Positions 180 to 7,947 of a stretch of 19,836 nucleotides of DNA are shown here, in pieces. A program made the position numbers and the translations under genes. Each line of letters starts with the position of its first letter. The first letter of the stretch is position 1. This DNA comes from a virus: UHGV virus genome UHGV-0279810. The stretch is one strand, 5' to 3'. The notes beneath the pieces are model-generated. The model was not told the origin of the DNA. It saw only the letters and a list, made by a program, of their open reading frames with translations, and searched no databases.

Positions 180-1310
180 TTGCGAGTCGTCGAGCCACAC
201 CACGACGGAACGCCGCACTGGCATATGATGCTTTTTTGTAATCCACGCCAGCGTAACCAGATTATCGAAATCATGCGTCGCTATGCGCTCAAAGAGGATG
301 GCGACGAAAGAGGAGCCGCGCGAAACCGTTTTCAGGCAAAACATCTTAACCGGGGCGGTGCTGCGGGATATATCGCGAAATACATTTCAAAAAACATCGA
401 CGGCTATGCACTGGATGGTCAGCTCGATAACGACACCGGCAGGCCGCTGAAAGACACTGCAGCGGCTGTTAGCGCATGGGCGTCAACGTGGCGCATCCCG
501 CAATTTAAAACGGTTGGCCTGCCGACAATGGGGGCTTACCGTGAACTACGCAAATTGCCGCGCGGCGTCAGCATTGCTGATGAGTTTGACGAGCGCGTCG
601 AGGCTGCACGCGCCGCCGCAGACAGTGGTGATTTTGCGTTGTATATCAGCGCGCAGGGTGGGGCAAATGTCCCGCGCGATTGTCAGACTGTCAGAGTCGC
701 CCGTATCCCGTCGGATGACGTTAACGAGTACGAGGAAGAAGTCGAGAGAGTGGTCGGCATTTACGCGCCGCATCTCGGCGCGCGTCATATTCATATCACC
801 AGAACGACGGACTGGCGCATTGTGCCGAAAGTTCCGGTCGTTGAGCCTTTGACTTTAAAAAGCGGCATCGCCGCGCCTCGGAGTCCTGTCAATAACTGTG
901 GAAAACTCACCGGTGGTGATACTTCGTTACCGGTTCCCACACCTTCTGAGCACGCCGCAGCAGTGCTTAATCTGGTTGATGACGGTGTTATCGAATGGAG
1001 TGACCCGGAGGTCGTGAGGGCGCTCAGAGGTGCATTAAAACACGGTCGGAGAACGCCAAATCGTCAGCAAAGAAACGGAAGCCCGTTAAAACCACATGAA
1101 ATTGCACCATCGGCCAGACTGGCCCGGTCGGAACGAATGCAAATTACCCGTATCCGCGTTGACCTTGCTCAGAACGGTATCAGGCCGCAGCGATGGGAGC
1201 TTGAGGCGCTGGCGCGTGGCGCGACCGTAAATTATGACGGGAAAAAATTCACGTATCCGGTCGCTGATGAGTGGTTCGGATTTCAAGATGAAGTGTCATT
1301 TTTTATATAA
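180..1310 (+). CDS. A: Replication initiation endonuclease gpA (rolling-circle Rep), 3' portion only; 5' part not contiguous in this window
   Basis: ORF translation has a His-hydrophobic-His motif (PHWHMMLF) followed about 50 residues later by paired tyrosines (GYIAKYISKN), as in HUH rolling-circle initiators. Position immediately upstream of the P2 tin/old slot. Frame is open back to 81 but no ATG/GTG start; the ORF track begins at a TTG. Confidence 0.8.
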   Translation: MRVVEPHHDGTPHWHMMLFCNPRQRNQIIEIMRRYALKEDGDERGAARNRFQAKHLNRGGAAGYIAKYISKNIDGYALDGQLDNDTGRPLKDTAAAVSAWASTWRIPQFKTVGLPTMGAYRELRKLPRGVSIADEFDERVEAARAAADSGDFALYISAQGGANVPRDCQTVRVARIPSDDVNEYEEEVERVVGIYAPHLGARHIHITRTTDWRIVPKVPVVEPLTLKSGIAAPRSPVNNCGKLTGGDTSLPVPTPSEHAAAVLNLVDDGVIEWSDPEVVRALRGALKHGRRTPNRQQRNGSPLKPHEIAPSARLARSERMQITRIRVDLAQNGIRPQRWELEALARGATVNYDGKKFTYPVADEWFGFQDEVSFFI

Positions 1311-1384
1311 AAAACGTTAAAATTCAATGCAATGAAGGCATAGAGGAGGTCGCTTTAATATGTTTTATGTTTAATATTTATTAA

Positions 1385-1413
1385 TTGTTTATTTAATATA
1401 AAAAAATATTATA
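1385..1413 (+). promoter_or_regulatory. Candidate sigma70 promoter for the cargo operon (TTGTTT -N16- TATTAT)
   Basis: TTGTTT at 1385-1390 and TATTAT at 1407-1412 in the AT-rich stretch after the A stop. Many alternative AT-rich hexamers exist nearby, so this is weak. Confidence 0.2.
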
Positions 1414-1449
1414 TATAGGGAGATCAAATACAACGGTTTACTTGTTATG

Positions 1450-1726
1450 ATGCAAACATTGGTTAGTTAGTGAGATACATCGCCATCAATTGGGTAACTT
1501 TACCCGTGGAAAGTTAACGCTTTCTAACATTTACCCCGCGCAACGCCCCTGCCAGCGACAAGAGTCACAGGATCAGGCGGTATGGCGTATGGGTATTCGA
1601 ACCCTTTGGGCGACCAAGGGTTCGTGGAGCAGGGGGCTAGTGCTGTTCAATCTCATCCTTATGAGGGCGAACCATAGTGTTGGAGCAGACATATCGTTTG
1701 CACACTATGGGCATAAGGAGCAAATC
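1450..1726 (+). ncRNA. Candidate structured non-coding RNA / regulatory leader upstream of the HTH-RT module (possible retron msr-msd); boundaries not resolved
   Basis: No ribosome-binding site for the ORF-track reading frame. Hairpins read by eye: CGAACCCTT-N9-AAGGGTTCG (1598-1624) and CCATAGTGT-N21-ACACTATGG (1672-1710). Near-palindrome GGGTAA-CT-TTACCC (1492-1505) and a second TTTACCC at 1530-1536. A retron RT gene normally has its ncRNA directly upstream. Confidence 0.25.
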
Positions 1727-1882
1727 ATGAAGAATGATAAATTAACCAACGAACAGCAGGCGCAGAACAAGTCAAACCTGAAAAAGTGGGCTGGTTATGT
1801 TTGGAAATTAATCAAATGGGGTATTAGACTGTTTGATTTAGCCACTCGAGCACTGGACTACTTTGAAGGGGGTGATGAGTAA
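1727..1882 (+). CDS. Small hypothetical protein (51 aa), first gene of the cargo operon
   Basis: ATG at 1727 preceded by AAGGAG (1715-1720) at good spacing. It is the only part of ORF 1490-1882 with a ribosome-binding site. Product MKNDKLTNEQQAQNKSNLKKWAGYVWKLIKWGIRLFDLATRALDYFEGGDE has a Trp-rich amphipathic segment. Confidence 0.45.
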   Translation: MKNDKLTNEQQAQNKSNLKKWAGYVWKLIKWGIRLFDLATRALDYFEGGDE

Positions 1883-1906
1883 TGCGTCCTCCCTAGTTTC
1901 AATAGC

Positions 1907-2239
1907 ATGGAGTTGCCTATGTTACACAGAGCCCTTCGTTTAATAAGGCAATACCATAAAGAGTCATTGGTTGATTTATCAACATCTTTAGGTATTCCAA
2001 AAGAAAAAATAGTAGAACTCGAAAGTGGGGTTTGGTCGCCTACAATTGATGTTTTACAGCGTTACGCCTCCCATTTCGATATGCCGGTATCTTCTTTAGT
2101 ATTTTTTTCAGAATCGTTAGGTACGCAGGGGCGTTTATCTAAGCGTTTCCGTTTAAATTTAGCTGGTAAAGTATTAGATGTTATTGAGTGGGCGAATAAG
2201 AAAAATGAAAAGACGAATAAAACTCAAAATTTCCACTAA
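1907..2239 (+). CDS. XRE-family helix-turn-helix DNA-binding protein (about 106-110 aa)
   Basis: Translation contains a classic XRE HTH (SLVDLSTSLGIPKEKIVELESG...SPTIDVLQRYASHF). Alternative start ATG at 1919 has a better GGAG upstream. Its 3' end abuts or overlaps the RT gene. Confidence 0.7.
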   Translation: MELPMLHRALRLIRQYHKESLVDLSTSLGIPKEKIVELESGVWSPTIDVLQRYASHFDMPVSSLVFFSESLGTQGRLSKRFRLNLAGKVLDVIEWANKKNEKTNKTQNFH

Positions 2240-3155
2240 AAATAAATCTTACGATATAATTGATTCGCCGTTTTATAAAATGAGAAGTAAAAGGAAATTG
2301 GCTTCTTTATTGGGGGTTGATGTAGGGGATTTATCAACCTTAAAAAAAGATGAAGGCAATTATTCTATTTTTGAACAGTTATCTAAAAACGGAAAGCCAC
2401 GTAAGATACAAAAACCATTAGAAAAATTAGATGTGGTGCATACTCGTATTGCAAGTCTGCTATCGCGAATTACCTTGCCAGATTATCTACATTCTGGAAA
2501 GAAGGGATGTTCTAATGTTACTAATGCTAAAATCCACCTTAATAATGAAAGGTTGATGACAACCGACATCAGGGCTTTTTTTCCATCAACTACTAGAGAA
2601 ATGATATTTTCATTCTTTTTTTCTGTTATGAAGATGTCATCTGATGTTGCGGATGTATTATCGTATATATGTACTTGCTATGGGCGTTTGCCTACAGGTA
2701 GCAGGATTAGTATGCCTCTTGCATATTTTGCAAATTCAAGAATGTTCGGAGAAATACACCAACTTTGTAATAAACTACACGTAAATATGTCTGTTTATGT
2801 TGATGATCTAACTTTTTCAGGACAAAACGTTAATAGACTATTTTGTTCAGTGATTCGCAAAATAATAAATAAGCATGGTCATGTGATGCATGCGGATAAA
2901 ACAAAAATTTATAGTAGAGAAAAGCCTAAGTTGGTAACAGGTGTTATTGTTTTGGGCGGTTCTTTAAAAGTCAGGAATAAGCAGCATCTTTTAATGTCTC
3001 AAGAAATTGAATATTGGAAAATGATAAAGGATGCAGCGTGTGCAAGAGAAACTCATACTGCCAAAAAGTTATTTGGACGATTGCATTCTATGGGGGTAAT
3101 TGAACAACGTTATAGATCAAAGGTGCTTACATTAAAAGCAAGTACTGCACTTTAA
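2178..3155 (+). CDS. Retron-type reverse transcriptase (about 291-325 aa depending on start)
   Basis: RT motifs in the translation: DIRAFFPS (motif 4-like), SVYVDDLTFSG (catalytic YxDD), NAKIH (retron NAxxH motif) and KLVTGVIVLGG (retron VTG motif). Size matches retron RTs of about 300-320 aa. Possible starts at 2178, 2205 or 2280. Confidence 0.85.
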   Translation: MLLSGRIRKMKRRIKLKISTKNKSYDIIDSPFYKMRSKRKLASLLGVDVGDLSTLKKDEGNYSIFEQLSKNGKPRKIQKPLEKLDVVHTRIASLLSRITLPDYLHSGKKGCSNVTNAKIHLNNERLMTTDIRAFFPSTTREMIFSFFFSVMKMSSDVADVLSYICTCYGRLPTGSRISMPLAYFANSRMFGEIHQLCNKLHVNMSVYVDDLTFSGQNVNRLFCSVIRKIINKHGHVMHADKTKIYSREKPKLVTGVIVLGGSLKVRNKQHLLMSQEIEYWKMIKDAACARETHTAKKLFGRLHSMGVIEQRYRSKVLTLKASTAL

Positions 3156-3206
3156 TACAGGTTCCTGTAAGTGATTATATTGTTCTTAAGATACTTACTG
3201 ATGTTA

Positions 3207-3236
3207 TTTCCCCGTAGCCTTAATTTCTGCGGGGAA
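3207..3236. terminator. Hairpin between convergent RT and FRG genes (possible bidirectional terminator)
   Basis: TTTCCCCGTAG (3207-3217) pairs with CTGCGGGGAA (3227-3236) around a 9-nt loop; a T-rich run follows on the + strand only. Confidence 0.3.
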
Positions 3237-3263
3237 GTATGGAGATATTTTGGTTATGGAATG

Positions 3264-4628
3264 CTAATTTTTTAATGTGTATTTTTCTGTGATTAGTTTC
3301 ATTGTTCTTTCCAATCCTAAATATACAGTGGCATCAGTAATATTGAGCACGGCAAGTTCTTTTAAAATTTTCTTTTTGTCTCTGATGTTTATTTTTTCTG
3401 TCTTAAAGTTGTATGGTGAATTATCTGCCTGATCGTTGGATATCTCAGGAAAAACGGCGTTATTACCGAATAATAAAAAGGCACCGGATTGAGATGATAT
3501 TCTTTCATTATTTATCCTGCTTTTTACAAAAATTATCTTTTCCAAATCATCTGGATTTATTATGCTTTGAAAATATGGTTTTTCATGCTTTATGGATTCT
3601 AAGAGTTTAAGGCAAGCATGAGAGTTGTTAAAATCATTATTTCTTTCTTCGAAAGAAAGCTTGTCTTTCATGTCTTTTGATAGCATGCATAAATTAGATA
3701 TGCAACTGACAGTGTCGGAATCGAAAAATTTAATGTTCTCTCTGTGTGTTTTAAATATTATTACTTGACCATCGATATCGTTTTTGTCGGAATTTATACT
3801 ACTGCATGCAAAATAAAGTGCAATTAATGGATTTGATGTGATGTCAAGTAAGCGAGTAGGTATGCCATAATGTTGCATTCTTACAAGTTTATCAAGCATT
3901 GATGTATCATCAATGAATTCTGAGGGTCTTGCGCTCAATGCTTCTTTAACAAGGTTGATTTCATTATGTAGAAATTTATAGTTCCCATTTTCATATTTTC
4001 TGAAAAGAGATGGTGCAAGTTCATAAGATGAATCTGAATGACCCCTGTAAAAAATCTCCTCATCCATATCTGCTGTTATATGGAGAACTTTTTCAATAAA
4101 TTCTTGTAAACTATTTACGGTTAATAATGTGCTATCTTCGTCTGGGAGAGGCGCTGGACTGCTATCCACTTGTGCATTTTGGTTAATACCAAATGTCTTA
4201 AGGATATCATCTATATTTTTGTCTTTTATGGCCCAGTGTGTTCTTTTAAGGCCATAAGTTCCGAGTTCTAAACTGCTTTCAACACTTTTGGCGTCTGATA
4301 TTTTGATTTCATTGTGTGTATGGGTGATTGCAAATTGGAAGTTGATTTCTTTTCCCTTAATGTGAATATTTGAAATTCTTCCAATTCGTATGTCGACATA
4401 ATAAGGTTTTGCTCCCTCTATTTGATAAGCTTCACTCATGAATATTGTTGGGAGTTTTTCAAGATAAGATAGTACATTGCTGCTTAATGGGGATAGTTTT
4501 TTGCGAATACCATCGGAGGTGTTTTCAAACATTCGTGATAAAAGAAATGAGAATTCTCCATTATTTTGGCTGAATGGTTTCCAGTGGTCGTAGTGGTCGG
4601 GAAAACCACCCATAATTAAATTAATCAT
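3264..4628 (-). CDS. FRG-domain protein (454 aa), candidate defence protein; N- and C-terminal regions of unknown function
   Basis: Central region carries the FRG-domain signature: FYRGHSDSSYELAPSLFR ... MQHYGIPTRLLDITSNPLIALYFA. AT-rich, lies in the P2 tin/old slot, convergent to the RT operon. Start ATG at 4628 with a weak AGGT ribosome-binding site. Confidence 0.65.
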   Translation of the reverse strand: MINLIMGGFPDHYDHWKPFSQNNGEFSFLLSRMFENTSDGIRKKLSPLSSNVLSYLEKLPTIFMSEAYQIEGAKPYYVDIRIGRISNIHIKGKEINFQFAITHTHNEIKISDAKSVESSLELGTYGLKRTHWAIKDKNIDDILKTFGINQNAQVDSSPAPLPDEDSTLLTVNSLQEFIEKVLHITADMDEEIFYRGHSDSSYELAPSLFRKYENGNYKFLHNEINLVKEALSARPSEFIDDTSMLDKLVRMQHYGIPTRLLDITSNPLIALYFACSSINSDKNDIDGQVIIFKTHRENIKFFDSDTVSCISNLCMLSKDMKDKLSFEERNNDFNNSHACLKLLESIKHEKPYFQSIINPDDLEKIIFVKSRINNERISSQSGAFLLFGNNAVFPEISNDQADNSPYNFKTEKINIRDKKKILKELAVLNITDATVYLGLERTMKLITEKYTLKN

Positions 4629-4911
4629 AATTACCTGTTCATCTGATGTAGGTGTAGGAATGCTTGTTGTTTGTTATGGTAATGTTAACGCTTGTTGGTG
4701 GCAACTACTATTACTACTTGCTGTTAGAGCTAAGACATTTTTTGATTGCTTGTAATGATAGCGAGCCTTTAACTAACTGGGATTTTGAAAAAATAAATGA
4801 ATTGTCAATTTCCTGAGATTTTTATTACTGCATTCATTAAGTGCATTTTTTTGCGTGTGTTAGTTGCCATGCTTTTCCATGTTTGTTACCAGTGTTGATG
4901 CGGTTACTGTG

Positions 4912-4952: not shown

Positions 4953-4971
4953 GGCGAGGCGGGGAAAGCAC
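4953..4971. other. cos: P2-type cohesive end site (cos), 19-nt GGCGAGGCGGGGAAAGCAC
   Basis: Matches the 19-nt cohesive-end sequence of phage P2 as I recall it, and sits at the expected place between the tin/old slot and gene Q. Confidence 0.7.
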
Positions 4972-5140: not shown

Positions 5141-6175
5141 TCAGCCGTTGTCAGTGTCCAGTGAGTAGTTTTTAAAGCGGATGACCTCCTGGCCGAGCCA
5201 GCCGTTTATTTCCCGAATCCTGTCCTGTAACGGGATTAGCTCATTGCGGACAAAGACCTTTGCCACTTTCTCAATATCACCCAGTGACCCGACGTTCTCC
5301 GGCTTGCCACCCATCAACTGAAAGGGGATGCGGTGTGCGTCCAGCAGGTCAGCGGCGCTGGCTTTTTTGATATTAAAAAAATCGTCCTTCGTCGCCACTT
5401 CACTGAGCGGGATAATTTTAATGCCGTCGGCTTTCCCCTGCGGGGCATAGAGAAACAGGTTTTTAAAGTTGTTGCGGCCTTTCGACTTCACCATGTTTTC
5501 GCGAAGCATTTCGATATCGTTGCGATCCTGCACGGCATCGGTGACGTACATGATGTATCCGGCATGTGCGCCATTTTCGTAATACTTGCGGCGGAACAGC
5601 GTGGCCGACTCATTCAGCCAGGCAGAGTTAAGGGCGCTGAGATATTCCGGCAGGCCGTACAGCTCCTGATTAATATCCGGCTCCAGCAGGTGAAACACGG
5701 AGCCGGGCGCGAAGGCTGTCGGCTCGTTGAAGGACGGCACCCACCAGTAAACATCCTCCTCCACGCCACGGCGGGTATATTTTGCCGGTGAGGTTTCCAG
5801 TCTGATGACCTTACCGGTGGTGCTGTAACGCTTTTCCAGAAACGCATTACCGAACACCAGAAAATCCAGCACAAAGCGGCTGAAATCCTGCTGGGAAAGC
5901 CACGGGTGCGGGATAAACGTTGAAGCCAGAATATTACGTTTGACGTAAATCGGTGAGCTGTGATGCACGGCAGCACGCAGGCTTTTTGCCAGACCGGTAA
6001 AGCTGACCGGCGGCTCATACCATCTGCCGTTACTGATACATTCGACGTAATCCAGAATGTCACGGCGGTCGAGCACCGGCACCGGCTCACCAAAGGTGAA
6101 TGCCTCCATTTTCGGGGCGCTGGCGGTCATTTTTTTTGCCGCAGGTTGCGGTGTTTTCCCTTTTTTCTTGCTCAT
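5141..6175 (-). CDS. Q: Portal protein gpQ
   Basis: 344-aa product with Lys-rich N-terminus MSKKKGKTPQPAAKK; P2 order cos-Q-P on the minus strand; ATGA start/stop overlap with P. Confidence 0.9.
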   Translation of the reverse strand: MSKKKGKTPQPAAKKMTASAPKMEAFTFGEPVPVLDRRDILDYVECISNGRWYEPPVSFTGLAKSLRAAVHHSSPIYVKRNILASTFIPHPWLSQQDFSRFVLDFLVFGNAFLEKRYSTTGKVIRLETSPAKYTRRGVEEDVYWWVPSFNEPTAFAPGSVFHLLEPDINQELYGLPEYLSALNSAWLNESATLFRRKYYENGAHAGYIMYVTDAVQDRNDIEMLRENMVKSKGRNNFKNLFLYAPQGKADGIKIIPLSEVATKDDFFNIKKASAADLLDAHRIPFQLMGGKPENVGSLGDIEKVAKVFVRNELIPLQDRIREINGWLGQEVIRFKNYSLDTDNG

Positions 6176-7947
6176 CAGTAAAACTCCAGAATGGTGGATG
6201 TCAGCGGGGTGCTGATACCGGCGGTGAGTGGCTCATTTAACAGGGCGTGCATGGTCGCCCAGGCGAGGTCGGCGTGGCTGGCTTCCTCGCTGCGGCTGGC
6301 CTCATAAGTGGCGCTGCGTCCGCTGCTGGTCATGGTCTTGCGGATAGCCATAAACGAGCTGGTGATGTCGGTGGCGCTGACGTCATATTCCAGACAGCCA
6401 CGGCGGATAACGTCTTTTGCCTTGAGCACCATTGCGGTTTTCATTTCCGGTGTGTAGCGGATATCGCGCGCGGCGGGATAGAACGAGCGCACGAGCTGGA
6501 ACACGCCGACACCGAGGCCGGTGGCATCAATACCGATGTATTCGACGTTGTATTTTTCGGTGAGTTTGCGGATGGATTCAGCCTGAGTGGCAAAGTCCAT
6601 GCCTTTCCACTGGTGACGCTCAAGTATTCTGAATTTGCCACCGGCCACCACCGGCGGTGCCAGCACCACGCATCCGGCACTGTCGCCACGGTGTGACGGG
6701 TCGTAACCAATCCATACCGGGCGGGAGCCGAACGGATTGGCGGCAAAGGGTGCATAGTCTTCCCATTCTTCCAGCGTGTCGACCATGCAGCGTTGCAGCT
6801 CCTCGAACGGGAACACCGACGCCTTGTCGTCAACAAATTCACACATGAACAGGTTTTTAAAATCGTCGGCGCTGTTTTCACGTTTGAGCTGCTCAATGTC
6901 GAACAGTGTGCAGCCGCCTTTCAGGGCGTCCTCAATGGTGACAATCTGCCGCCACTGGCCGTCCGCACAGAGAAGCCCGCTGGCAAGGGCGTTATGACTG
7001 ACGTCGATTTCCACACGTTCGGCGGCGCTGGCACGTCCCCGGTTGAACAGTTCACCTGACCAGAACGGGTAGGCGTCGTGCGCCAGCGTGGACGGGGTGG
7101 AGAAATAGGTCGAGCGCAGGTGACTCTGTGAGGCCATACCTGATGCCACCTTACGCAGTACCTGAAAATTCGGGATCCAGAAAATCTCATCGACGTACAG
7201 GTCGCCGTTATGGCTCTGCGCGGTGTTGGAGTTGGTGCCGAGAAAAATCAGTTTTGCGCCGTTATTGCCCAGGACAATCGGGTCACCGGTAAGGTCAACG
7301 TCCACCAGACGGGCAAAGGCGATGATGTATTCGCGGAACACATACGCCTGCGTTTTACTGGCCGACAGAAAAATCTGGTTATGACCGGTTTTCAGGGCGC
7401 GCAGCAGTGCCTCGCGGGAAAAATAAAACGTCGCGCCAATCTGGCGGGATTTCAGGATATCGCGGATGCGGTGCTCAAGCCCGGCGCGATACCAGTGCAA
7501 CTGATAGTCGAAAGACTGCTCAAAGAAAATCTGCTCCAGCTTTTCGATGGCTTCGTCACTGAAAAAATTCTTTTTCGGTTTGCGACGCCCGCCTTTGTTG
7601 CGGTTAGCGACGTTCGGATTAAGGTCTGCCTCGTTGCCGGTCTGGCTGTAGCGGTTTACCCGTGCCAGTCGTTCAATCTGGCGTCCCAGCAGGTCAATTT
7701 CCTTGAAGTCACCGCCGGTTTTCTGCGGTTTGATGATGAGCTGGGTCAGCCGCGCTTCCAGGCTCATTTCGACACGGCTGATGGGGGCAACGCTGTCCCA
7801 GCCGTCGCGCTGTTTCCAGCTCTGCACCGTCGGGCGTTTCATCTGCAACATGGCGGCAATCTGCGGCACGGAAAACCCCTGCCAGTACAGCAGCGCCGCC
7901 TGACGACGCGGGTCGTGTAAAAGAGTGGTGTCTGTGGTGATGGTCAT
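6175..7947 (-). CDS. P: Terminase large (ATPase) subunit gpP
   Basis: 590-aa product from MTITTDTTLLHDPRRQAALLYWQGF; start moved 10 codons inside the ORF-track start (7977) to the ATG at 7947, which has GAGGT upstream. Confidence 0.9.
   Translation of the reverse strand: MTITTDTTLLHDPRRQAALLYWQGFSVPQIAAMLQMKRPTVQSWKQRDGWDSVAPISRVEMSLEARLTQLIIKPQKTGGDFKEIDLLGRQIERLARVNRYSQTGNEADLNPNVANRNKGGRRKPKKNFFSDEAIEKLEQIFFEQSFDYQLHWYRAGLEHRIRDILKSRQIGATFYFSREALLRALKTGHNQIFLSASKTQAYVFREYIIAFARLVDVDLTGDPIVLGNNGAKLIFLGTNSNTAQSHNGDLYVDEIFWIPNFQVLRKVASGMASQSHLRSTYFSTPSTLAHDAYPFWSGELFNRGRASAAERVEIDVSHNALASGLLCADGQWRQIVTIEDALKGGCTLFDIEQLKRENSADDFKNLFMCEFVDDKASVFPFEELQRCMVDTLEEWEDYAPFAANPFGSRPVWIGYDPSHRGDSAGCVVLAPPVVAGGKFRILERHQWKGMDFATQAESIRKLTEKYNVEYIGIDATGLGVGVFQLVRSFYPAARDIRYTPEMKTAMVLKAKDVIRRGCLEYDVSATDITSSFMAIRKTMTSSGRSATYEASRSEEASHADLAWATMHALLNEPLTAGISTPLTSTILEFY

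What the first reader, a model, noticed from the sequence alone, without database searches (positions are those of the whole stretch)
3264..4628. Convergent 454-aa FRG-domain protein: candidate stand-alone defence gene or retron partner
The central region carries the FRG-domain signature (FYRGH...QHYGIPTRLLDITSNPLIALYFA), a domain without an established biochemical function to my knowledge. The ~160-aa N-terminal and ~170-aa C-terminal regions match nothing I recognise. The gene is AT-rich, sits in the defence hotspot and is transcribed toward the RT operon. That orientation suggests an independent single-gene system, but a functional link to the retron module cannot be excluded.
Basis: partly seen in the sequence, partly recalled or inferred. 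Interest (0 to 1): 0.75.

Follow-up and report, generated by a model that had tools for sequence, protein, structure and literature searches.

The report
Stand-alone PUA–FRG phage-defence candidate gene
This is a real 454-residue gene in the variable cargo slot of a P2-like prophage: it is already listed as an untested single-gene anti-phage candidate, it does not depend on the retron next to it, and it appears to join a reader-like sensor domain for modified nucleotides to an ADP-ribosyltransferase-like toxin domain.

Summary
Window 3264-4628 (-) is a 454-aa ORF with a Pfam FRG domain, 33% GC, convergent with a type VI retron. It lies in the gpA-cos-portal hotspot of a P2-like prophage that is identical to Peduovirus P22H1.

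The "retron partner" reading is not supported:
- None of 80 homologous loci in other species has a retron RT within 10 kb.
- Forty E. coli genomes carry related retrons in the same slot without FRG.
- Published type VI retrons defend alone.

The "stand-alone defence candidate" reading is supported but not new. The protein matches PADLOC candidate PDC-S15 (7e-98). It is also "system 56: FRG" in Rousset et al. 2022's P2-hotspot catalogue. I found no experimental test.

What I add:
- The "unknown" N-terminal 150 aa has a PUA-like (EVE/YTH/ASCH) fold. It is a portable module also fused to TIR, Abi_C, kinase and other effectors.
- The "unknown" C-terminus is the conserved second half of the FRG catalytic module, which weakly resembles ADP-ribosyltransferases.

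Best model, inferred and untested: a one-protein sensor-effector that aborts infection through NAD+-directed chemistry. It is functionally analogous to Metis/PUA-Cal-HAD.

The parts
3264..4628 (-). Complete ORF of the 454-aa PUA-like/FRG protein (stop codon at 3264-3266). It is identical to WP_016239053.1 and to Peduovirus P22H1 gp44.
4179..4628 (-). N-terminal domain, aa 1-150, with a PUA-like (EVE/YTH/ASCH-type) fold. Conserved residues: R32, E35, T37, P60, E66, G83 and R129-T-H-W132-A-x-K135. Proposed to be the sensor.
4125..4178 (-). Variable linker, aa 151-168, with low conservation and low pLDDT.
   Evidence: Mean identity 0.17; pLDDT 61-69.
3267..4124 (-). FRG catalytic module, aa 169-454, which matches the PDC-S15 profile. 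Invariant motifs: FYR195GH, VRMQH253, PTR259LLD262ITSN266P, FDS304D305TVSC, E349K350, N374xR376xxS379Q380xG382xF. Proposed ART-fold effector.
3786..4058 (-). The stretch covered by the Pfam FRG model (aa 191-281). This is only the first half of the conserved module.
4676..4704 (-). Sigma-70-like promoter candidate (TTGCCA-17-TACCAT), 48 nt upstream of the ATG. This is a consensus match only.
3205..3239 (.). Hairpin with a 13-bp stem between the convergent RT and FRG stop codons. Possibly a terminator that separates the two transcription units.
   Evidence: region z-score -2.0
1440..3155 (+). Context, not part of the system: an adjacent, independent type VI retron (ncRNA region, SP 1727-1882, HTH 1907-2239, RT 2178-3155).
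   Evidence: PADLOC RT_VI 1.1e-105 and HTH_VI 7.2e-30; SP phrog_15287 3e-39; literature
4953..4971 (+). Context: an exact match to the 19-nt sequence GGCGAGGCGGGGAAAGCAC, which I recall as the P2 cohesive end. It places the gene in the cos-proximal gpA-Q hotspot.
   Evidence: hotspot definition from PMC9122126

Best explanation
The gene is a self-contained, phage-carried conflict gene. It is most likely an anti-phage (superinfection-exclusion or abortive-infection) system made of one protein, and it sits next to a type VI retron without working with it.

Shown:
- It occupies the cos-proximal variable hotspot of a P2-like phage.
- It belongs to a ~450-aa family found across Proteobacteria.
- Its homologues have no conserved partner gene and lie in prophage hotspots and integrase-bounded islands.
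- It has two modules: an N-terminal PUA-like domain, which elsewhere is fused to TIR, Abi_C, kinase, KAP-NTPase, GmrSD_N, cyclase and CD-NTase domains, and a ~285-aa FRG module.

Inferred:
- The N-domain is the sensor. It would bind a nucleotide or nucleic acid, possibly one carrying a modified base, as EVE/YTH domains and the Metis/PUA-Cal sensors do.
- Ligand binding would release the FRG module. FRG would be an ADP-ribosyltransferase-fold enzyme (candidate motifs R195, T264-S265 and Q380) that either hydrolyses NAD+ or ADP-ribosylates a target, stopping replication of the incoming phage at the cost of the cell.

Rough step-wise probabilities:
- independent of the retron: 0.9
- conflict/defence role: 0.75
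- sensor-effector logic: 0.6
- NAD+-directed chemistry: 0.45
- a modified nucleotide as trigger: 0.3
For: Independence from the retron:
- 0 of 80 homologous loci have RT, HTH, SP or P2 genes within 10 kb.
- The largest neighbour family is present in only 7 of 80 loci.
- Retron variants at 84% and 78% nt identity sit in the same hotspot with other cargo.
- Type VI retrons are sufficient for defence on their own.

Defence context:
- PADLOC PDC-S15, E 7e-98.
- Listed as single-gene P2-hotspot system 56, with 75 occurrences, by Rousset et al..
- Homologues occur in the same P2 hotspot without a retron and in the P2-like tail-fibre hotspot in Klebsiella.
- Homologues occur in integrase/AlpA islands with DUF87, Fic, radical SAM and Pycsar-TIR genes.
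- Homologues occur beside colicin genes at a prophage end and in the temperate phages Tritos and PhiR11_1.

Architecture:
- The full-length model has pLDDT 82.8 and pTM 0.79. The N-domain model has pLDDT 91.
- The N-domain family is fused to CAP12/Pycsar-TIR (21), FRG (15), TIR_2 (10), Abi_C (7), Pkinase (4) and others. The TIR fusions are PADLOC PDC-S35.
- The Aravind group classes Frg in the ART superfamily as a predicted NADase/effector.

Precedent: PUA-like sensor plus NAD+/dNTP-degrading effector in Metis and PUA-Cal-HAD.
Against: - No experiment on any FRG protein was found, and Rousset et al. apparently did not clone this one.
- The canonical catalytic Glu of the [QE]-x-E motif is not evident; the sequence there is S-Q380-S-G.
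- The N-domain is PUA-like only at fold level (5-15% identity). It has no Pfam EVE/YTH/ASCH hit and no PDB sequence hit.
- Homology of the N-domain to the MisA/PUA-Cal sensor could not be tested.
- The N-domain's conserved polar set (R, E, T, E, R, H, W, K) could equally mark an enzyme, since some ASCH proteins are hydrolases.
- Among immediate neighbours in non-phage loci, only a minority hit known defence models.
- P2 hotspots also carry non-defence cargo.
Confidence: 0.5

Rival explanations
1. Retron partner. The FRG protein would be an additional effector or regulator of the adjacent type VI retron, for instance activated by its msDNA through the nucleic-acid-binding N-domain.
For: The two are adjacent and have the same low GC (33% each). 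They co-occur in all 60 E. coli genomes that carry this allele. A PUA-like domain could in principle bind ssDNA (PUA-Cal binds DNA promiscuously).
Against: - The 60 co-occurrences come from one near-identical prophage (>=99% identity).
- 80 of 80 homologous loci elsewhere lack any RT.
- 40 E. coli genomes have related retrons in the same slot with different downstream genes.
- Other FRG homologues sit in P2 hotspots without a retron.
- The genes are convergent with a hairpin between them.
- Retron-Vpa2, Eco12 and Sen3 defend as ncRNA-SP-HTH-RT alone.
- Rousset et al. curated FRG as a separate single-gene system.
Confidence: 0.05
2. Nucleic-acid-directed ADP-ribosyltransferase giving direct immunity rather than suicide. 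The PUA-like domain would target the ART-fold domain to phage DNA or RNA, possibly marked by modified bases. The FRG module would ADP-ribosylate that nucleic acid, as DarT does, or act on RNA ends, as Tpt1/KptA does.
Against: The same N-domain is mostly fused to effectors that do not act on nucleic acids (TIR NADases, kinases, Abi_C, cyclase, CD-NTase). That pattern fits a general sensor better than a targeting domain. There is no specific similarity to DarT.
Confidence: 0.2
3. Not a defence gene. It would be a prophage-borne toxin or addiction module, a virulence or fitness factor, or a phage counter-defence enzyme acting on NAD+/ADPr metabolites.
Against: - No signal peptide, secretion partner or immunity gene is conserved next to it.
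- The N-domain's other partners are typical defence effectors: Pycsar-type TIR, Abi_C, and kinase domains that hit the PD-T4-6 profiles.
- PADLOC lists the family as a defence candidate.
- Aravind et al. note that Frg is deployed by prokaryotic immune systems rather than by viruses.
Confidence: 0.15

Closest known systems
PADLOC candidate system PDC-S15 (single-gene 'phage defence candidate'), which is the same as 'system 56: FRG' of the P2 hotspot catalogue (Rousset et al. 2022, Table S5B)
   Same: The FRG module matches PDC-S15 HMMs at E 7e-98. The exact 454-aa sequence is listed as a single-gene P2-hotspot system with 75 occurrences.
   Different: Both are catalogue entries with no phenotype, mechanism or domain dissection. 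The best-matching PDC-S15 profiles (286-300 positions) cover only aa 168-452, so the N-terminal PUA-like domain is an addition that those models do not describe.
Metis type I (MisA/MisB), also described as PUA-Cal-HAD
   Same: Both have an N-terminal PUA-like domain followed by an effector predicted or shown to destroy an essential nucleotide cofactor. The logic is one sensor-effector polypeptide acting by abortive infection.
   Different: The effector here is FRG (ART-like), not a calcineurin-like metallophosphatase. There is no HAD (MisB) partner and no other conserved neighbour. Homology between the two PUA-like domains was not tested, and the trigger is unknown.
PADLOC PDC-S35 and other proteins that carry the same N-domain fused to TIR, Abi_C, Ser/Thr kinase, KAP NTPase, GmrSD_N, cyclase or CD-NTase
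   Same: They share the homologous ~135-aa N-terminal domain with the RTHWAxK motif. HMM E-values run from 1e-13 to 1e-59, and the domain is usually at the N-terminus.
   Different: The effector domain differs. These proteins are also uncharacterised candidates.
Modification-dependent (type IV) restriction enzymes with PUA-superfamily readers (VcaM4I/TspA15I EVE-HNH, McrB N-domain, PD-T4-3)
   Different: The protein here has no nuclease domain. The similarity is at fold level only, at 6-10% identity.
ADP-ribosyltransferase superfamily toxins and NADases (RES toxins, DarT, diphtheria/cholera-type toxins, Tpt1/KptA)
   Same: There is fold-level resemblance of the FRG module. An aromatic-Arg-Gly motif lies on the first strand and a T-S-N turn precedes a helix, in the positions where R-S-E ARTs have Arg and S-T-S (my inference from the secondary structure). 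The assignment of Frg to the ART superfamily is published.
   Different: There is no detectable sequence similarity. The module is much larger and has extra conserved motifs (FDSDTVSC, EKPYF). No obvious catalytic Glu is present, and no activity has been shown.
Type VI retron (Retron-Vpa2, -Eco12, -Sen3)
   Same: It is the immediate neighbour in the same hotspot and has the same low GC.
   Different: It is a separate system. The FRG gene is not part of the ncRNA-SP-HTH-RT operon and does not co-vary with it.

Membership tests
Pfam FRG domain (PF08867) | A match to the family HMM above the gathering score, with the (F/Y)RG motif | tested here: met
   76.9 bits against a cut-off of 25, aa 191-281; FYRG at aa 193-196
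PADLOC PDC-S15 | A match to the PDC-S15 profile HMMs | tested here: met
   E 7.3e-98 and 7.9e-97 over aa 168-452; 14 PDC-S15 models hit
PADLOC PDC-S15 | Single-gene system with no obligatory partner | tested here: met
   No neighbour family occurs in more than 7 of 80 loci, and the immediate neighbours are heterogeneous
PADLOC PDC-S15 | Confers phage resistance | not testable with these tools
   No experimental report was found. The sequence is absent from the cloned-systems tables of PMC9122126.
Type VI retron accessory gene | Conserved co-occurrence with the retron RT across homologues | tested here: not met
   0 of 80 loci have RT, HTH or SP. 40 of 100 E. coli retron loci lack FRG.
PUA-like superfamily (EVE/YTH/ASCH branch), N-domain | PUA-like beta-barrel fold | tested here: met
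PUA-like superfamily (EVE/YTH/ASCH branch), N-domain | Sequence membership in a described family (Pfam EVE, YTH, ASCH or PUA HMMs) | tested here: not met
   No Pfam or NCBIfam hit at E <= 1 outside FRG. The profile gives no meaningful hit against PDB sequences.
PUA-like superfamily (EVE/YTH/ASCH branch), N-domain | Binds a modified base or nucleotide in an aromatic pocket | not testable with these tools
   Only conserved residues can be listed (W132, H131, R129, K135, R32, E35, T37, E66).
ADP-ribosyltransferase (ART) superfamily, FRG module | Split beta-sheet ART fold | tested here: inconclusive
ADP-ribosyltransferase (ART) superfamily, FRG module | Catalytic triad (R-S-E or H-Y-E) | tested here: inconclusive
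   Invariant R195 lies on strand 190-197, and T264-S265-N266 precedes helix 267-275. Invariant Q380 precedes strand 383-387, but Gly, not Glu, sits two residues on. The mapping is by inference; no structural alignment output was available.
ADP-ribosyltransferase (ART) superfamily, FRG module | Binds and cleaves NAD+ | not testable with these tools
   Only a published prediction exists (PMC9503650).
Metis / PUA-Cal-HAD | Calcineurin-like metallophosphatase effector fused to the PUA-like domain | tested here: not met
   No Metallophos hit in this protein or among 83 carriers of the N-domain.
Metis / PUA-Cal-HAD | Adjacent HAD phosphatase (MisB) | tested here: not met
   No conserved neighbour. 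No HAD among the 25 most frequent Pfam families of the immediate neighbours (66 families matched in all).
Metis / PUA-Cal-HAD | N-domain homologous to the MisA PUA-like sensor and triggered by m6dAMP | not tested

The most novel reading that the evidence does not exclude
The N-terminal ~135-aa 'RTHWAxK' domain is a previously undescribed branch of PUA-like sensors that detects a modified (deoxy)nucleotide or nucleic acid produced during infection, as Metis does. It would have been wired by domain shuffling to at least eight effector types: FRG, two TIR families, Abi_C, kinase, KAP NTPase, GmrSD, cyclase and CD-NTase. PUA-FRG would then be a one-protein, partner-less Metis-like system and the first demonstration that the FRG domain is an ART-fold NAD+-consuming immune effector.
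Probability: 0.25. Interest if true: 0.75.

Novelty: new variant of a known kind. Interest (0 to 1): 0.5.

Why it matters
FRG is a widespread domain with no experimentally shown activity. In this gene it comes in a compact, single-gene form carried by a phage, in E. coli, where it can be tested directly.

The two-module reading (PUA-like reader plus ART-like effector) turns "unknown protein" into specific experiments on which ligand, which chemistry and which residues.

If the N-domain proves to be a nucleotide sensor, it would extend the newly described principle of sensing infection through modified nucleotides (Metis/PUA-Cal-HAD) to a whole set of effector fusions, including PADLOC candidates PDC-S15 and PDC-S35.

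The analysis also settles a practical annotation point. The retron and the FRG gene in this P2 hotspot are two separate systems stacked side by side.

Tried and rejected
1. Retron partnership was rejected on distribution.
2. A search for a conserved operon partner found nothing general. I called ORFs in the 80 loci and clustered six neighbours on each side. There are lineage-specific neighbours only: a TPR protein in 5 loci and a 439-465-aa protein in Klebsiella P2-like prophages.
3. Defence-island enrichment of the immediate neighbours, tested with Pfam and PADLOC, gave heterogeneous results: S24 repressors, S8/IetS-like proteases, C5 methylases, Mrr, AbiJ and integrases, each in 5 or fewer of 141 proteins. 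This is suggestive of mobile or defence contexts but not quantitative.
4. Sequence searches of PDB with the full-length profile and with the N-domain profile gave no real hits.
5. Foldseek against PDB gave nothing significant. It provides only weak YTH support and no ART support.
6. NCBIfam has no model for the protein, and Rfam has no hit anywhere in the window.
7. Literature searches for 'FRG domain', 'FRG domain-containing', PF08867 and PDC-S15 found no functional study.
8. Three sources were not obtainable: Burroughs & Aravind 2020 (PMC7685563), Odegrip 2006 (PMC1367236), and the supplements of the PUA-Cal-HAD preprint. I therefore could not check the original FRG/ART argument, and I had no MisA/PUA-Cal sequence for a homology test.
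9. I could not establish whether the window's retron is Retron-Eco12.
10. The look-up of Rhizobium homologue P0057 returned no record.
Full report
**1. The observation**

Window 3264-4628 (- strand) is a 454-codon ATG-initiated ORF. It contains the quoted FYRGH...QHYGIPTRLLDITSNPLIALYFA signature. Pfam FRG (PF08867) matches aa 191-281 at E 2.4e-21.

The ORF has 33.0% GC, while the neighbouring portal gene has 53%. It converges on the RT gene, which ends at 3155, and a 13-bp hairpin at 3205-3239 lies between the two stop codons.

It is a real, conserved gene:
- It has 3517 relatives, and full-length ~450-aa homologues at 41-67% identity occur in Enterobacterales, Aeromonas, Rhizobiales, sphingomonads and pseudomonads.
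- phrog_4962 covers it end to end at 1.4e-200.
- Two E. coli alleles differ by 5 synonymous and 3 conservative changes.

**2. Where the gene sits**

- The window starts with the C-terminus of the P2 gpA replication endonuclease (180-1310).
- An AT-rich block follows (about 1310-4900).
- The 19-nt sequence GGCGAGGCGGGGAAAGCAC lies at 4953-4971. I recall it as the P2 cohesive end.
- Next come portal Q (5141-6175, -), terminase P and the capsid genes.

This is the gpA-cos-gpQ hotspot that Rousset et al. 2022 defined as a reservoir of anti-phage systems (PMC9122126).

The same DNA occurs in 60 of 5426 complete E. coli genomes at >=99% identity, always in this prophage. The protein is 100% identical to gp44 of the isolated phage Escherichia virus P2_2H1 (Peduovirus P22H1, NC_049386.1).

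The other cargo is a complete type VI retron: a 51-aa small protein at 1727-1882, HTH at 1907-2239 and RT at 2178-3155. PADLOC scores RT_VI at 1.1e-105 and HTH_VI at 7.2e-30.

**3. Is it a retron partner? No.**

- (a) I fetched 80 loci encoding homologues (35-57% identity) from one-genome-per-species contigs. None has anything similar to the RT, HTH, SP or P2 proteins within 10 kb (tblastn, E 1e-5).
- (b) The retron module occurs in 100 E. coli genomes: 60 at >=99%, which are the FRG carriers, 28 at about 84% and 12 at about 78%. The diverged retrons sit in the same hotspot, but downstream they carry other small hypothetical genes and no FRG.
- (c) Other FRG homologues lie in P2 hotspots without any retron.
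- (d) Type VI retrons (Vpa2, Eco12, Sen3) defend as ncRNA-SP-HTH-RT operons alone (bioRxiv 10.1101/2025.10.22.683967 and 10.64898/2026.04.27.721009).

The linkage seen here is therefore the stacking of two cargo modules in one near-clonal prophage.

**4. Is it a stand-alone defence candidate? Yes, but this is already catalogued.**

- PADLOC's candidate PDC-S15 matches aa 168-451 at 7.3e-98.
- Rousset et al.'s Table S5A lists 'hypothetical + RVT_1 + FRG + hypothetical' with WP_016239053 and WP_023148838. Table S5B lists this exact sequence as single-gene 'system 56: FRG', with 75 occurrences.
- Their text describes cloning only eight P2 systems and does not mention FRG. The sequence is absent from the cloned-system files.
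- I found no experimental paper on any FRG protein.

The contexts of homologues are uniformly mobile or conflict-related:

| Homologue | Context |
|---|---|
| E. coli, 48% identity | Same P2 hotspot, with two unknowns and an ASCH/DUF3850 gene |
| Klebsiella, 58% identity | P2-like tail-fibre hotspot, after a 439-465-aa unknown |
| Morganellaceae | Integrase/AlpA island with Fic and a DUF87 ATPase |
| Sinorhizobium | Island with radical SAM, MqsA-like and Pycsar-type TIR genes between two integrases |
| Klebsiella variicola | A prophage end beside colicin genes |
| Temperate phages Tritos and PhiR11_1 | Phage genomes |

No neighbour family is shared by more than 7 of 80 loci. Immediate neighbours are heterogeneous: S24 repressors, S8/IetS-like proteases, C5 methylases, Mrr, AbiJ and integrases.

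**5. The 'unknown' flanks**

*C-terminal region.* It is not a separate domain. The Pfam model covers only aa 191-281, but conservation continues. Mean identity to homologues is 0.69 for aa 191-281, 0.61 for 282-320 and 0.67 for 346-395. Invariant motifs in this stretch are FDS304D305TVSC, E349K350 and N374-x-R376-x-x-S379-Q380-x-G382-x-F. The PDC-S15 profiles span the whole of aa 168-452.

*N-terminal region, aa 1-150.* It is a separate module joined by a poorly conserved linker (identity 0.17).
- A phmmer scan with aa 1-164 of 1.84 billion cluster representatives found 162 proteins.
- In 83 of the longer ones, the domain (usually N-terminal) is fused to CAP12/Pycsar-type TIR (21), FRG (15), TIR_2 (10), Abi_C (7) and protein kinase (4). 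Single cases carry KAP NTPase, GmrSD_N, a nucleotide cyclase and a DncV-like nucleotidyltransferase.
- The TIR fusions are PADLOC PDC-S35.
- An HMM of the domain recognises 141 of these representatives at 1e-8 to 1e-59, all but one at 1e-13 or better.
- The family signature is R32-x2-E35-x-T37, P60, E66, G83 and R129-T-H-W132-A-x-K135.

**6. Structure**

The full-length AF2 model has mean pLDDT 82.8 and pTM 0.79.

I draw two conclusions. The N-domain has a PUA-like fold; this was tested and met at fold level only, at 5-15% identity. The ART resemblance belongs to the FRG module; it is weak but far more frequent than chance.

Foldseek gives only a marginal YTHDF2 hit (E 0.03) and no ART hit. 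Profile searches of PDB sequences find nothing.

The Aravind group independently places Frg in the ART superfamily as a predicted NADase/effector of prokaryotic immunity (PMC9503650). I could not access the primary paper.

From the secondary structure, invariant R195 (FYRG) lies on the first core strand. T264-S265-N266 lies at a strand-to-helix turn, and Q380 lies just before strand 383-387. These are the places where R-S-E ARTs carry Arg, S-T-S and [QE]-x-E. The second position of the last motif is Gly, not Glu. This mapping is my inference, not an alignment output.

**7. Mechanism (inferred)**

The domain-shuffling pattern, one N-domain joined to many unrelated toxic or signalling effectors, is the signature of a sensor or regulatory module in conflict systems.

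PUA-superfamily domains read modified bases. In type IV restriction enzymes they are fused to nucleases (PMC6765204, listed). In Metis/PUA-Cal-HAD, a PUA-like domain binds m6dAMP released when phages degrade the host chromosome. It then switches on an NAD+- or dNTP-degrading metallophosphatase. The PUA-Cal paper reports its PUA-like family fused to TIR, HEPN, DrHyd, HNH and McrB as well.

I therefore propose the following. The N-domain senses a nucleotide or nucleic-acid cue, possibly a modified base. It relieves inhibition of the FRG module. The FRG module then consumes NAD+ or ADP-ribosylates a target and aborts the infection. Carried by a P2-like prophage, this would exclude competing phages.

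*Rivals:*
- A DarT-like enzyme modifying nucleic acids, guided by the PUA domain (0.2).
- A non-defence toxin or counter-defence role (0.15).
- A retron partner (0.05).

*Caveats:*
- No activity is shown for any FRG protein.
- The N-domain's conserved polar residues could mark an enzyme rather than a reader.
- Homology to the Metis sensor is untested.
- There is no MisB-like 'cleaner' partner.

**8. Novelty and verdict**

The gene and its candidate status are known (PDC-S15; Rousset system 56; FRG-as-ART prediction), so the finding is not a discovery of a new system. Three things appear new relative to what I could find:
- the explicit separation of the gene from the retron;
- the recognition that the protein is a PUA-like sensor joined to an FRG effector;
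- the finding that this N-domain is shared with PDC-S35 TIR proteins and several other effector classes.

I rate it a new variant of a known kind (single-protein sensor-effector abortive-infection systems; PUA-sensor immunity). Interest is about 0.5. It is worth a bench test because it is compact, native to E. coli and borne by a phage, but it is not categorically new.

Noticed in passing
window 1440-3155 (+): A complete type VI retron (ncRNA region, 51-aa SP at 1727-1882, HTH at 1907-2239, RT at 2178-3155, with HTH and RT overlapping by 62 nt). Rfam 15 has no model that hits it. The 130-aa TTG ORF at 1490-1882, annotated as gp41 in Peduovirus P22H1, overlaps the ncRNA region and is probably an over-extended call of the SP gene.
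   Followed up: partly
L083-L086 (E. coli ECONIH5, O157:H7 FRIK2455, DSM 101139, 65COLEC), about 6300-7300 in each locus: Type VI retron variants at 84% and 78% nt identity occupy the same P2 hotspot but are followed by different unknown cargo: a convergent 145-aa gene (WP_000042038) plus 64- and 89-aa ORFs, or a co-directional 266-aa gene (WP_023281095). The slot downstream of the retron is itself a mini-hotspot of uncharacterised genes.
   Followed up: no
proteins P0123-P0268; alignments A3 and A6: A ~135-aa N-terminal domain family (motifs SRxLEYT ... LPTLFxYE ... RTHWAxKDxDL) with no Pfam model and a PUA-like fold. It is fused to Pycsar-type TIR (PADLOC PDC-S35), TIR_2, Abi_C, Ser/Thr kinase, KAP NTPase, GmrSD_N, a nucleotide cyclase and a DncV-like NTase. 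Apparently stand-alone ~130-240-aa copies also exist.
   Followed up: partly
L088-L090, 9772-12069: In other P2-like prophages that carry a 48%-identical FRG homologue, the hotspot also holds an ASCH/DUF3850 protein (another PUA-like domain) next to gpA, plus 198-aa and 243-aa proteins with no Pfam hit.
   Followed up: no
L091-L094, 6432-7829: In Klebsiella P2-like prophages the FRG homologue lies in the tail/tail-fibre hotspot. It is preceded, about 170 nt upstream on the same strand, by a 439-465-aa protein with no Pfam hit. This may be a lineage-specific partner.
   Followed up: no
L003, L004, L005, L013, L035 (gene immediately upstream of the FRG gene): An Enterobacterales sub-cluster (56-57% identity) has a 267-aa TPR protein ending 13 nt before the FRG start on the same strand, a 148-aa protein downstream and an IS21-type transposase nearby. 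This may be an operon variant on a transposable unit.
   Followed up: no
window 4953-4971 (+): An exact copy of GGCGAGGCGGGGAAAGCAC, which I recall as the P2 19-nt cohesive-end sequence. The FRG gene is thus the last gene before cos, at the right end of the packaged genome, as in NC_049386.1.
   Followed up: yes
L001 7916-10217 (E. coli WP7-S17-ESBL-01): An ISEc12 (IS21-family) element, with a frameshifted istB, is inserted between the FRG gene's upstream region and the portal gene in one otherwise identical prophage.
   Followed up: no
L100/L101 (Sinorhizobium meliloti contigs): The FRG homologue lies in a ~10-kb island bounded by two integrases. The island also encodes a radical SAM protein, an MqsA-like antitoxin and a CAP12/Pycsar-type TIR protein, so it looks like a compact multi-system defence island.
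   Followed up: no
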